A stretch of DNA of 35,570 nt from Escherichia coli (GTDB lineage Bacteria; Pseudomonadota; Gammaproteobacteria; Enterobacterales; Enterobacteriaceae). The position numbers were made by a program. Each line of letters starts with the position of its first letter. The first letter of the stretch is position 1. Where the stretch lies: the NCBI RefSeq assembly GCF_003334385.1, contig NZ_QOWN01000045.1; one strand, 5' to 3'. Below, in pieces: positions 3,001-6,000 of the stretch.

Positions 3001-6000
3001 AGCTTTCTCCTTTTTAGGTAGTTAAGTTGTTACGAGTTGCAAGAATACAACATTAACAACTTTTATCACAACTTTTAGGTGTTGGAAAGCTAAAACATAA
3101 AGTTGTAACCTCATCAAAAAAGAGAGGGATATGTTGTGAAAACACTGGCAGAACGATTAAAGATAGGTAGAGAGAAAGCTGGCATGAGCCAAGCTCAACT
3201 AGCTGAAAAAATTGGACTTTCACAACAATCTGTAGCCAAAATAGAGAATGGCGAAACTCTACAACCGCGCAAAATTAAAGAAATTGCAAAAGTTTTAGGT
3301 GTATCACAAAAGTGGTTACAACTTGGTATTGAAGACAACGCATCCATACCTGATCTTGTTGTAAAAGAAGCAGAAAGCACCGCATTAGACCCCGATATTT
3401 TCGTAAACATTCCTGTTTTAGATGTCGAGTTATCGGCAGGTAACGGATGTCTGGCTGAAATAGTTGAATCAGCTATTGACTGGTTTCCGTTAAGAAGAGC
3501 AGATTTGAGAAAATCTGGCGTATGTGCATCTAATGCCAAGATCGTAAAAATATGGGGGAACAGTTTATTACCGGTTCTCAATAATGGAGATCTTGTTGCC
3601 GTTGATATTTCTCAAACCGTTCCTATTCGTGATGGCGATCTTTATGCCGTACGAGATGGTGTATTGCTAAGGGTTAAAATACTTATCAACTTACCTGACG
3701 GTGGCTTGATTCTTAGAAGCTTCAACAAAGATGAGTACCCAGATGAAATACTCACCTTTGAAGATAGACGAGCCAGAATTCATGTTATAGGTAGGGTATT
3801 CTGGTCATCGCGAACTTGGTAATGCATCGAAAAGCATTTCTTCAGAAATAATTTTAAGTTTTGCACCATTATCATCCCTATAAGATATAGCCTTTTCGAT
3901 CTTCCTTCCGTGACTTGAGAATTTCCAATCACGGGAGGAAAGCGTCCCAATTACTAAAAAATCCAACTTTTGAGTAATTCCACTACTGATGTTCCCACCA
4001 GCATTTTTAATCAAATTTTCAACTACGGCTCTCTTTCCTGCAACAAAAGTGCCTGTAAGACAATAGGTTTTACCCTCTAACTCTATCGAAGCCCCTACAT
4101 CAATAGGCAGCCTGGTCGCCAAACCATCCACCACCCCACTTTCCAAGTCACATCCTGTGAAGTCTACTAATGCCTTATGTAGAGTTAAACTCTCATCTTC
4201 AGTAATAACACCATCTTTAAGAATTTCCTTTACAAGTGCATAAAGTTTTTTTCCTGGGTAGTTGTTCTTCAAAGCTCCATTTTGCTCAAGCCACCAATTA
4301 AGATATCTTATTTCTTCTTGAGTTAAGCTCCGATCAGCAATTAATCCTTTACATAGTCCATTAAGTAAATGGACATCTACATCCTTGGAGTAAAAATCAA
4401 TTTCAGGGATATCAAGAATTTCCCTCTGTATTTGGAGAAGGCTATTTTTAAGGTCATCACGTTCTTCTGATGTGATTATTCCATCCGCAAGAATATCCGA
4501 CACCCGTGCTGATAGACTTTTTATAACTCCATTATTGATAATCTGCTTTGCTTCAAGTAACCATGTATCTAAGTAAAGAACCTCCTCTTCACGGACAACT
4601 CCATCTGCAATGATTCCATCAATGATGCTAATCAAGTTAGCAAATAACTTGTCCCGGTTCTGTGTGTAATTAAAAGCGTAAAGCGCGTCTTCCATACAAC
4701 CTCCTTTTTTTGATAATCCTTGCACTCCTTGGCTACTCGTTCAAACCACATAAAGTTGTTGACAACATTCAAAACCACAACTAAATTACAACTTAAAGGT
4801 GTTAAAACAACGAACAGGCAGGACGCCCACGAAGTAGCCGCCGGTGGCGTATGAATGACCGGATGATTCGTTAAATACTATGTGTAAGAGAGCGTAAATG
4901 AACCGTTATTTCACATGCTCGTTTTGTGGCGCAAACGAGCTGCAGGCAAAAAAAATCATCGCCAAAGGCGGAAAAGATGAAGTTGCTATCTGCTCTGAGT
5001 GCGTAGTCTTGTGTGTCGGGGCATTAATCAATATCAGCACAACTATTCAGTTCACACCAAATGAGAATGCGCCTTTAGATGCGCGGAAATCTGGAGGTTA
5101 AAGAACAAAATGAAAGTCCAGATTTTAAACAATAGTGGTGAAGTCGTTTGGTCATACGACATAGCCGCTCCTGTAGATCAGAGCGGCGATAGCTGGACCA
5201 ATGGGAAACATCAGATTATGGCTGGAGTTGTGTTCTCTTTACGCCGTGCTTTAGAACAGGCTGAAGTATTTCCATCAGACCCTGAATGGAAATGGCCTTT
5301 TTCTATTTGTCCAAATTCGGAGAGCACATTTCAGAAAATTGGTCAGAAAGTCGCACTCGAAGAGCATCAGCCAACTGTTTCCTGATTTTTTCAGGTAACT
5401 CGTCGGCATCGCAGAAACAACAACGCTCGATCATGTTGAAAGCCGATGCGTAGAACTGTTTCTGCTGAGTGTCGCTGAGACAGGAAAAGAGCGACGTTAC
5501 GATGATTTTATTAATTGCATTATCAAGTTCTTTTTCATCAAAAGTCATTTGATTTTCCTTTTATGTATACTGGCTTAAAAGGATACCACCGAGCCTGAAG
5601 TGGTGAAAAGACAGGCACATAACAGCTAAGTATTTTCAACCAGAGAGAATCCTTAGCGTTGTGGTGAATGCGGCTCAGCGCACGCGGGTTAAGGTTGAGG
5701 CTGACAGTCGACCTTCTGTGGATACCCACCCGTCTGGTGTGCAACCTTCGCCAGGCACCGGGAGGCACCCGGCACCACAACTTTATGCTGTGTGTAGTCC
5801 TGGCGGTACCAGTTTGTACCCTTGCTTCCGGCTGGTACCGTCCTTTTTACAAAACAGAGAAGAGCATCACCGGACGACGGGCTCATAACCCAATCCATCC
5901 GGGCGGCTGCCACCGCAGGTGTTCTTCTCTGTTTTGTGGAGAAACTAATCGGCCTTGCAGGGTCGATATGATGAGGAGCAGCAAAATGGCTAGCGAACGC

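What the first reader, a model, noticed from the sequence alone, without database searches (positions are those of the whole stretch)
4898..5101. Standalone ClpX-type zinc-ribbon protein as the first gene after the OL-like region
The 67 aa protein matches the ClpX N-terminal C4 zinc-binding domain (CSFCG...KKIIAKG...ICSECVVLC) but has no AAA+ module. The ClpX N-domain dimerises and recognises adaptors and substrates, and lambda O replication protein is a classic ClpXP substrate. A phage-encoded N-domain mimic could titrate ClpX substrate or adaptor binding, for instance to stabilise the O-like initiator encoded at 892-1833, or could be a small zinc-ribbon regulator occupying the N-gene position.
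Basis: partly seen in the sequence, partly recalled or inferred. Interest (0 to 1): 0.6.

Follow-up and report, generated by a model that had tools for sequence, protein, structure and literature searches.

The report
Phage-encoded free ClpX zinc-finger domain
A prophage's first early gene encodes a 67-residue copy of the zinc-finger domain that the host protease ClpXP uses to pick its substrates; the domain identity is solid and already annotated, but the idea that it acts as a decoy for ClpXP is untested.

Summary
ORF 4898-5101 (+) is a real gene under purifying selection. It encodes a ClpX-N-domain-type C4 zinc finger (Pfam E=2e-10; the modelled fold matches only ClpX N-domain structures) with no AAA+ module. 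It is the first gene after a repressor-controlled, PL-like promoter in an E. coli lambdoid prophage at thrW. RefSeq already names it "ClpX C4-type zinc finger protein", and no function is known.

Its position is very stable. In 71 of 73 related viral loci it directly follows a CI-type repressor gene, across at least five repressor types, while its other neighbours vary. Distant stand-alone relatives also sit among early phage genes, two of them in Mu-like phages.

The decoy interpretation remains plausible but unproven. One residue of the ClpX ligand patch is kept and another is not, and the dimer test was inconclusive. The local initiator is not a lambda O homolog, so that specific link is weak. 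The "N-like regulator" reading is disfavoured.

In passing I found a 74-nt structured RNA in the leader (4805-4878). It is strongly supported by covariation, widespread in temperate and some virulent phages, and absent from Rfam. It is not tied to this gene.

The parts
4745..4802 (+). PL/OL-like control region: sigma70-type promoter TTGACA (4759-4764), 17-nt spacer, TAAATT (4782-4787), flanked by operator-like sites with ACAAC/GTTGT half-sites
   Evidence: Promoter scan scores 10 of 12. ACATAAAGTTGT is identical at 3095-3106 and 4748-4759, and ACAACTTTTAGGTGT (3068-3082) matches ACAACTTAAAGGTGT (4788-4802). Repressor binding itself is inferred.
4805..4878 (+). Conserved structured leader RNA. 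P1 pairs CGAACA with UGAUUCG, P2 is GGC[AGGAC]GCC, and P3 pairs CCGGU with ACCGG around a 12-nt loop. It starts about 20 nt after the -10 hexamer.
   Evidence: Covariance model R1 scores 96.8 bits and finds a single copy in the window. On 44 sequences, 96.4% of cells pair, 10 of 15 pairs show double-sided changes, no shuffle in 500 reaches the observed values, and the covariation score is 0.378 against 0.082 or less in slid controls. It is not in Rfam.
4886..4892 (+). Shine-Dalgarno-like AAGAGAG, 5 nt upstream of the ATG
   Evidence: Read from the sequence. Homologs have AGGAG or GAGG at the same distance.
4898..5101 (+). CDS of the 67-aa stand-alone ClpX-type C4 zinc-finger protein (stop codon included)
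   Evidence: Purifying selection is shown.
4898..5038 (+). Conserved zinc-finger core, residues 1-47. Zinc ligands are C7, C10, C32 and C35. The model has a beta hairpin at 20-22 and 30-32 and a helix at 33-51.
   Evidence: Family alignments. The AF2 model has pLDDT above 85 over residues 1-50. Foldseek matches 2ds5, 2ds6 and 2ds8 with target TM 0.80-0.85 and rmsd 1.3-1.9 A.
5039..5098 (+). Variable C-terminal tail, residues 48-67, mostly low confidence in the model beyond the helix end at residue 51
   Evidence: Length and sequence vary among close homologs. pLDDT is 51-57 over residues 51-67.
5110..5385 (+). Next cistron of the same operon (91 aa, phrog_3195, unknown function). It is not an obligatory partner.
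   Evidence: PHROG E=8e-64. It is present directly downstream in only 33 of 77 related loci.
3136..3822 (+). CI-type repressor gene (HTH plus S24 peptidase), the conserved upstream neighbour of the family
   Evidence: Annotated as an XRE family regulator. A CI-like gene lies on the same strand upstream in 71 of 73 loci.

Best explanation
Shown: 4898-5101 is a genuine gene for a small protein made of one ClpX-N-domain-type treble-clef zinc finger and a short variable tail. It is the promoter-proximal gene of the repressor-controlled early-left operon, so it should be among the first proteins made after infection or prophage induction. Inferred mechanism: the free domain acts as a mimic of the ClpX N-domain. 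The ClpX N-domain is the docking site for adaptor tails (SspB, RssB) and for N-domain-dependent substrates (lambda O, MuA, FtsZ). A free copy could bind those ligands and keep them away from ClpXP. Alternatively it could pair with ClpX N-domains and block them. Either way it would change which proteins ClpXP degrades early in lytic growth, without touching N-domain-independent substrates such as ssrA-tagged proteins. Which ligand matters for this phage is not known.
For: Specific homology to the ClpX N-domain: Pfam E=2e-10, family profile against the PDB at E 3e-18 with the next non-ClpX hit at 0.02, and Foldseek probability 1.0 with 36-38% identity and rmsd 1.3-1.9 A. The zinc ligands, the CSFCG knuckle including the F16 equivalent, the K-K-I-I-A strand and the ICxEC helix start are all kept. 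F16 lies in the hydrophobic pocket used by lambda O, SspB, RssB and trigger factor (PMC7804408). Expression timing follows from the first-gene position behind a PL-like promoter with operators. That position is conserved in 71 of 73 loci across at least five repressor types while the neighbours vary, which suggests a self-contained early function. Distant stand-alone relatives are also early phage genes. Two are in Mu-like phages, one beside the repressor and one between gemA and mor. From my own knowledge, Mu depends on the ClpX N-domain for MuA remodelling and repressor turnover. The gene is under purifying selection. Also from my own knowledge, small early phage proteins that modulate host AAA+ proteases are known: lambda CIII for FtsH, and T4 PinA and T7 Gp4.5 for Lon.
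Against: There is no experimental or structural evidence of binding to ClpX or its ligands. The conserved residues are mostly structural. Family-specific changes lie on or near the ClpX ligand surface: Y34 becomes A30, N44 becomes V40, I46 becomes A42 (variable), and the hairpin loop is 3 residues longer. The tandem-fusion AF2 model gave no confident self-association (pLDDT 54, pTM 0.40). The phage's initiator is not a lambda O homolog. From PMC5890618, the same dimeric treble-clef fold is used by CsfB for an unrelated target. I found no paper describing a phage ClpX-finger protein.
Confidence: 0.35

Rival explanations
1. The finger is a small protein-binding module aimed at a host or phage target outside the ClpXP system, for example a sigma factor or RNA polymerase, FtsZ, or a defence protein. 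The ClpX-like fold would reflect ancestry only.
For: CsfB shows that a ClpX-N-domain-like treble-clef dimer can act as an anti-sigma factor (PMC5890618). The family has its own invariant surface signature (T6, E14, K23-G24, A30, S33, V40, N45) that differs from ClpX. The first slot of this operon holds many unrelated small accessory genes in related phages, which is typical of host-takeover or anti-defence cargo.
Against: Sequence and fold similarity point to ClpX and not to CsfB or any other solved zinc finger. There is no PADLOC hit. No candidate target emerges from the gene neighbourhood, since no partner gene is conserved.
Confidence: 0.3
2. It is a nucleic-acid-binding regulator that fills the role of N or Nun, perhaps acting on the conserved leader RNA or on transcription of the early operon.
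For: It has the promoter-proximal position that N and Nun hold in lambda and HK022 (for nun). In the close family the structured leader RNA lies upstream in 69 of 75 loci.
Against: The protein is near neutral (7 K/R, 6 D/E) and has no arginine-rich motif. The ClpX N-domain is a protein-binding domain. The leader RNA occurs mostly without the finger gene (111 of 130 copies), including in virulent phages. Some finger genes lack the full element (L007-L009). The window has no boxA or boxB after the leader and no second copy of the element.
Confidence: 0.1
3. It is a decaying gene fragment or a spurious ORF with no function.
For: The ORF is short, and some database relatives are frameshifted or fused (P0008, P0012, P0013).
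Against: There is strong purifying selection, invariant zinc ligands in 53 sequences, conserved position across at least five immunity types, and a confident fold.
Confidence: 0.02

Closest known systems
ClpX N-terminal zinc-binding domain (E. coli ClpX residues about 1-60; Pfam PF06689; PDB 1OVX, 2DS5-2DS8)
   Same: C4 zinc site, treble-clef fold, the CSFCG and ICxEC motifs, the K-K-I/L-I-A strand and the F16 equivalent. Identity is 36-38%, rmsd 1.3-1.9 A.
   Different: It is not attached to an AAA+ ring. The hairpin loop is 3 residues longer. Y34 is A, N44 is V, and I46 is A or variable. The helix is more hydrophobic (VVLCVGALINI). It has a variable tail and is phage-encoded. Dimerisation and ligand binding are unverified.
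CsfB (Gin), the Bacillus subtilis anti-sigma factor
   Same: A small stand-alone zinc finger that acts by binding another protein. Its authors report that it is the only other dimeric treble-clef finger and is structurally closest to the ClpX N-domain (PMC5890618).
   Different: No sequence or Foldseek relationship to this protein was detected. It is sporulation-specific, and its authors doubt common ancestry with ClpX.
Small phage modulators of host AAA+ proteases: lambda CIII (FtsH), T4 PinA and T7 Gp4.5 (Lon); and the anti-adaptors IraD, IraM and IraP (RssB/ClpXP)
   Same: Small proteins that redirect host proteolysis. Lambda cIII is also an early-left operon gene (own knowledge; IraD in PMC6546054, listed).
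   Different: They are unrelated in sequence and fold, and none is a copy of the protease's own recognition domain. A role of the present protein in proteolysis is inferred, not shown.
Lambda N and HK022 Nun
   Same: First gene of the early-left operon (HK022 nun located).
   Different: N and Nun are basic arginine-rich peptides that bind boxB RNA. This protein is a near-neutral zinc finger, and the window has no boxA or boxB.
HK022 put antiterminator RNA (for the leader element noticed in passing)
   Same: A structured RNA of about 70 nt at the very start of the PL transcript (PMC9378689). It shares the short motifs ACGAAC.GGC and GGAUGA.
   Different: The architecture differs: here a closing stem encloses two hairpins, whereas put has two side-by-side stems. 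The covariance model does not find HK022 putL or putR. There is no second copy in the right operon. Activity is untested.

Membership tests
ClpX-type C4 zinc finger domain (Pfam PF06689, zf-C4_ClpX) | Significant match to the family profile | tested here: met
   E=2e-10 over residues 6-40. The family profile against ClpX N-domains in the PDB gives E 3e-18 to 6e-15.
ClpX-type C4 zinc finger domain (Pfam PF06689, zf-C4_ClpX) | Four Cys zinc ligands in two CxxC knuckles | tested here: met
   C7, C10, C32 and C35 are invariant in 53 sequences. The spacing between knuckles is 3 residues longer than in E. coli ClpX.
ClpX-type C4 zinc finger domain (Pfam PF06689, zf-C4_ClpX) | Treble-clef fold that superimposes on the solved ClpX N-domain | tested here: met
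   The AF2 model has pLDDT 80.5 overall and above 85 in the core. The top five Foldseek hits are ClpX N-domains at probability 1.0 with target TM 0.80-0.85, and all others are at or below 0.28. This rests on a model, not an experiment.
ClpX-type C4 zinc finger domain (Pfam PF06689, zf-C4_ClpX) | Stable homodimer through the helix and hairpins | tested here: inconclusive
   The tandem-fusion AF2 model gave pLDDT 54 and pTM 0.40. No multimer predictor was available.
ClpX-type C4 zinc finger domain (Pfam PF06689, zf-C4_ClpX) | Hydrophobic pocket (F16, I46) that binds lambda O, SspB, RssB and trigger factor | tested here: inconclusive
   F16 is kept as F9 in all 53 sequences. I46 aligns with A42, which varies across the family (A, T, V, I, K, L). 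Binding cannot be tested here.
ClpX unfoldase (NCBIfam NF003745 / TIGR00382) | AAA+ ATPase module following the N-domain, with a score above the curated cut-off | tested here: not met
   The protein is 67 aa. Scores are 25.8 and 22.7 bits against cut-offs of 359 and 371, and only residues 5-47 match.
N/Nun-type early-left antitermination or termination factors | Basic arginine-rich RNA-binding motif, with a cognate boxB (and boxA) in the leader | tested here: not met
   There are 7 K/R and 6 D/E and no arginine-rich motif. The window leader has no boxA or boxB after the conserved element, although relatives do have boxA.
CsfB/Gin anti-sigma factors | Detectable sequence or fold relationship to CsfB | tested here: not met
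   No CsfB chain appears among PDB sequence hits at E up to 10 or among Foldseek hits.
Known anti-phage defence proteins (PADLOC-DB) | Match to a defence-system model | tested here: not met
   No family matched at E up to 0.01.
HK022-type put RNA (for the leader element) | Located at the start of the PL transcript | tested here: met
   The element starts about 20 nt after the -10 hexamer here, and about 14-15 nt after it in L004 and L010.
HK022-type put RNA (for the leader element) | Two adjacent stem-loops similar in sequence and structure to putL/putR, with a second copy in the PR operon | tested here: not met
   The structure is a closing stem plus two hairpins. R1 finds nothing in the HK022 early region. 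The window has a single copy.
HK022-type put RNA (for the leader element) | Protein-independent antitermination through the RNA polymerase beta-prime zinc-binding domain | not testable with these tools
   This needs terminator read-through assays in wild-type and rpoC mutant hosts.

The most novel reading that the evidence does not exclude
Temperate phages, including Mu-like ones, carry a free copy of the ClpX substrate-recognition domain as an immediate-early gene and use it as a decoy that reprogrammes ClpXP substrate choice at the start of lytic growth. As far as I know, that would be the first viral protease modulator that works by mimicking the protease's own recognition domain. It would also give a function to the large uncharacterised group of stand-alone and tandem ClpX-type fingers (624 cluster representatives at E up to 1e-3).
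Probability: 0.3. Interest if true: 0.7.

Novelty: new variant of a known kind. Interest (0 to 1): 0.45.

Why it matters
ClpXP controls proteins that decide phage fate, including replication initiators, the Mu transposase and repressor, repressor fragments after SOS cleavage, RpoS and antitoxins. A phage-made free recognition domain would be a simple way to shift those decisions. It could also serve as a tool to block only N-domain-dependent ClpXP substrates. The hypothesis can be tested directly with standard ClpXP assays. Separately, the structured leader RNA found beside the gene is widespread in the early transcripts of temperate and virulent enterobacterial phages and is not in Rfam. It may be a new cis-acting element of early phage transcription.

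Tried and rejected
1. A tandem-fusion AF2 model (core, 30-residue GS linker, core, with a paired alignment A5) to test dimerisation gave pLDDT 54 and pTM 0.40, which is uninformative.

2. Homology of the leader RNA to HK022 put: I reconstructed putL from the HK022 genome and the residue numbering in PMC9378689. Only short shared motifs were found, and the covariance model found no hit. The published alignment of ten put RNAs is held only as an image, and King 2011 (PMC3187212) is not held. I therefore cannot exclude that this element is among the described 'put-like' sequences.

3. Thibault 2006 (PMC1693814), which maps the lambda O and SspB contacts, is not held. Only F16 and I46 could be checked, through PMC7804408.

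4. Literature searches for the annotation phrase, the Pfam name, phage ClpXP inhibitors and the RNA core sequence found nothing relevant. S. aureus Gp05 and the Pas sRNAs were checked and are unrelated.

5. PADLOC gave no hit for the finger.

6. The viral fold search found a few homologs, but names were unavailable.

7. Rfam found nothing for the leader at E up to 10.

8. Thermodynamic folding of the whole leader is not better than shuffles (z=0.32). Support for the structure comes from covariation only.

9. A terminator right after the element was looked for and found in only 5 of 129 copies.

10. The search for related loci with the broad alignment A3 failed because no stretch was conserved enough. 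The survey therefore covers the close family only, and it contains many near-identical loci.
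Full report
**1. The observation**

The window carries an ORF at 4898-5101 on the + strand that encodes the 67-aa protein MNRYFTCSFCGANELQAKKIIAKGGKDEVAICSECVVLCVGALINISTTIQFTPNENAPLDARKSGG. Pfam PF06689 (zf-C4_ClpX) matches residues 6-40 at E=2e-10. The NCBIfam models for full-length ClpX match only residues 5-47 and score 23-26 bits against cut-offs of 359-371, so there is no AAA+ module. The only PDB sequences that a single-sequence search finds are ClpX N-domains.

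The ORF is a real gene. Over the 47 core codons of seven homologs, synonymous sites are saturated (pS 0.43-1.1) while non-synonymous differences stay at 0.15-0.34. A Shine-Dalgarno-like run precedes the ATG. RefSeq annotates the identical protein (WP_001083098.1) as "ClpX C4-type zinc finger protein". The domain resemblance is therefore correct, but it is already recorded in public annotation. PHROGs files the protein under phrog_5259, function unknown.

**2. Where it sits**

The window is E. coli chromosome with a lambdoid prophage integrated at tRNA-Thr (9965-10040), next to proBA. The immunity region reads as follows:
- an O-position gene at 892-1833 (-)
- a ymfL-like gene and a cro-like gene on the - strand
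- a CI-type repressor at 3136-3822 (+)
- a BRCT-domain gene at 3805-4725 (-)
- the finger gene, followed by small early genes, xis/int-side genes and the integrase at 8787-9950

A TTGACA-17-TAAATT promoter lies at 4759-4787. Sequences shared with the cI/cro intergenic region bracket it: ACATAAAGTTGT is identical at 3095-3106 and 4748-4759, and ACAACTTnnAGGTGT occurs at 3068-3082 and 4788-4802. The "OL-like region" and "first gene" statements are therefore supported. Actual repressor binding is inferred.

**3. The family and its synteny**

The word-indexed search found only close relatives in Escherichia and Salmonella. Their core (residues 1-47) is conserved and their tails vary.

An exhaustive profile search found 624 cluster representatives at E up to 1e-3. 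About 13 of these are close clusters. Beyond them lies a large set of short proteins with one to four ClpX-type fingers, and only one full-length ClpX appears in the top 150. Many stand-alone members share AIC and LCV where ClpX has YIC and LCN.

In every close relative I examined, the gene follows a CI-type repressor on the same strand (Salmonella phages 118970_sal3 and F1055, and P0020, P0021, P0023). A survey of viral contigs gives these numbers:

| Feature near the finger gene | Count |
|---|---|
| CI-like gene on the same strand ending within 1600 nt upstream (mostly 150-300 nt), at least five repressor types | 71 of 73 |
| BRCT gene intervening | 19 of 73 |
| 91-aa downstream gene present | 33 of 77 |

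Many of these loci are near-identical, so the counts overstate independence. Even so, the position is conserved and the neighbours are not, which suggests the protein acts on its own.

More distant stand-alone fingers also lie among early phage genes:
- P0054, in the operon that diverges from an S24 repressor
- P0098, in a replication module
- P0031, in a Mu-like phage 76 nt after the repressor gene
- P0067, in another Mu-like phage between gemA and mor

**4. Structure**

An AF2 model built on 53 sequences is confident over residues 1-50 (pLDDT 80.5 overall). It shows a beta hairpin at 20-22 and 30-32 and a helix at 33-51. The five best Foldseek matches in the PDB are all ClpX N-domain structures (probability 1.0, target TM 0.80-0.85, rmsd 1.3-1.9 A, 36-38% identity), and nothing else exceeds probability 0.28. 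A profile of the stand-alone family matches ClpX N-domains at E 3e-18 to 6e-15, with the next structure at 0.02.

A defining property of the ClpX N-domain is a stable dimer. My only available test, a tandem fusion, gave a poor model (pLDDT 54, pTM 0.40), so dimerisation is undecided.

**5. Mechanism**

According to the literature, the ClpX N-domain docks lambda O, MuA and FtsZ and the adaptors SspB and RssB, but it is not needed for ssrA tags (PMC5415555; PMC7804408). F16 and I46 form the hydrophobic pocket used by lambda O, SspB, RssB and trigger factor. In the phage protein F16 is kept (F9, invariant). I46 aligns with A42, which varies. Y34 and N44 are replaced by family-specific A30 and V40. 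The ligand surface is therefore only partly retained.

Taking together the specific homology, the immediate-early position and the occurrence in Mu-like phages, my preferred reading is a free N-domain mimic that titrates N-domain ligands or pairs with ClpX N-domains. I give it about 0.35. A protein-binding role with a different target is nearly as likely (0.3), and CsfB shows this fold can be used that way. A nucleic-acid-binding, N-like role is unlikely (0.1). The protein is near neutral, and the slot behind the leader holds many unrelated small genes (only 19 of 130 leader copies precede a finger ORF). The window also lacks boxA and boxB.

It could still be a ClpXP substrate. That is simply unknown.

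**6. The leader RNA, found in passing**

While comparing the intergenic regions I saw that about 60 nt between the promoter and the finger gene are nearly identical in phages with different operators, and that one locus has an apparent compensatory change.
- **Abundance:** blastn found the element in 53 phage records, unannotated, including ST64B, SfV, SfII, SfIV, mEp460, mEp237, ZF40 and SEN34.
- **Predicted structure:** RNAalifold predicts a closing stem P1, a small hairpin P2 and a 5-bp stem P3 with a 12-nt loop.
- **Divergent copies:** ZF40, mEp237, SPN3UB, Aeromonas pAEv1818, the T5-like Providencia phage PSTCR5 and the autographivirus Minorna have completely different P1 sequences that still pair (GCGAAC/GUUCGC, CCACC/GGUGG, CAUC/GAUG, GGAAC/GUUCC, UUCGG/CCGAA). 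The core AGGCAGGACGCCCACGAAGUAGCC is almost invariant.
- **Covariation:** on 44 sequences, 96.4% of cells pair and 10 of 15 pairs have double-sided changes. No shuffle in 500 reaches the observed values, and the covariation score is 0.378 against 0.082 or less in slid controls.

Three caveats apply. The first sample was selected with an exact pattern, so the invariance of P2 is partly an ascertainment effect. The alignment was fitted to the model. The free energy of the whole leader is unremarkable.

The element is not in Rfam, and no paper in the library prints its core. The window has one copy. In about 30 copies elsewhere it is followed by a hairpin and a canonical boxA, GCTCTTTAACAA. That places it in nut-like antitermination leaders. 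It resembles HK022 putL in position and in two short motifs, but not in architecture, and the model does not detect putL or putR. Its function is unknown. Candidates are an RNA polymerase-modifying or Nus-associated element, or a 5' stabiliser or protein-binding leader. It is not specifically linked to the finger gene.

**7. Verdict**

The protein is a new variant of a known kind: a stand-alone, phage-encoded ClpX N-domain. The family is catalogued but uncharacterised. Interest is moderate (0.45). The decoy idea is attractive, cheap to test and not excluded, but nothing here shows it.

Noticed in passing
window 4805-4878 (+); also L140 1500-1573, L141 1503-1576, L142 1498-1573, L143 1490-1563, L144 1490-1564, L145 1161-1236: A 74-nt structured RNA at the start of the early-left transcript. 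It has strong covariation in two stems and a nearly invariant core (AGGCAGGACGCCCACGAAGUAGCC). It is found in at least 120 viral contigs and 53 phage records, including virulent T5-like and T7-like phages. It is absent from Rfam and unannotated, and its function is unknown (possibly put-like or Nus-associated).
   Followed up: partly
for example L104 (- strand, 10-55 nt 3' of 8367), L107, L015, L028, L045, L068: In about 30 copies the leader element is followed by a hairpin (AGCGCCCUACAGGACGCUU, which shares CAGGACGC with the element) and a canonical boxA, GCTCTTTAACAA. This is an rrn-like order (hairpin, then boxA) in a phage early leader. The window lacks this part.
   Followed up: no
L089 3254-3327 and 3484-3557; L064 1616-1689 and 2297-2357: Some viral contigs carry two copies of the leader element a few hundred bases apart on the same strand.
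   Followed up: no
window 3805-4725 (-): A BRCT-domain gene (phrog_3989) is inserted between the repressor gene and the early-left promoter, on the opposite strand and overlapping the 3' end of cI. It is present in only 19 of 73 related loci and has a weak PADLOC hit (PDC-S48, E=2.7e-7). It looks like a lysogen-expressed accessory or candidate defence gene.
   Followed up: partly
window 5110-5385 (+) and 5303-5548 (-): Two convergent ORFs overlap by 83 bases, and both have full-length, very strong PHROG matches (phrog_3195 at E=8e-64; phrog_3311 at E=5e-55). RefSeq annotates only the + strand one.
   Followed up: no
L014 6001-6198; L138 5001-5162: Stand-alone ClpX-type fingers occur in two Mu-like transposable phages, one 76 nt after the repressor gene and one between gemA and mor. 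From my own knowledge, Mu transposition and repressor turnover depend on the ClpX N-domain.
   Followed up: partly
proteins P0016, P0024, P0026, P0028: There are proteins made of tandem ClpX-type fingers. P0016 is 2505 aa with 37 matched stretches, and several others have 2-4 fingers that are very close to ClpX itself. They form a large uncharacterised group.
   Followed up: no
window 892-1833 (-): The replication-position gene is an HTH_36 winged-helix protein with a low-complexity, Ser/Asp/Lys/Pro-rich repeat-like middle, not a lambda O family member.
   Followed up: partly
window 9965-10040 (-), 23855-23932, 24597-24674, 27926-28003, 34007-34127 (-): The prophage ends at tRNA-Thr(CGT), next to proA/proB. 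The host part of the window has three naRNA4 (REP-type) matches and a group II intron D1-D4 match beside a 378-aa ORF (32757-33893, -).
   Followed up: no
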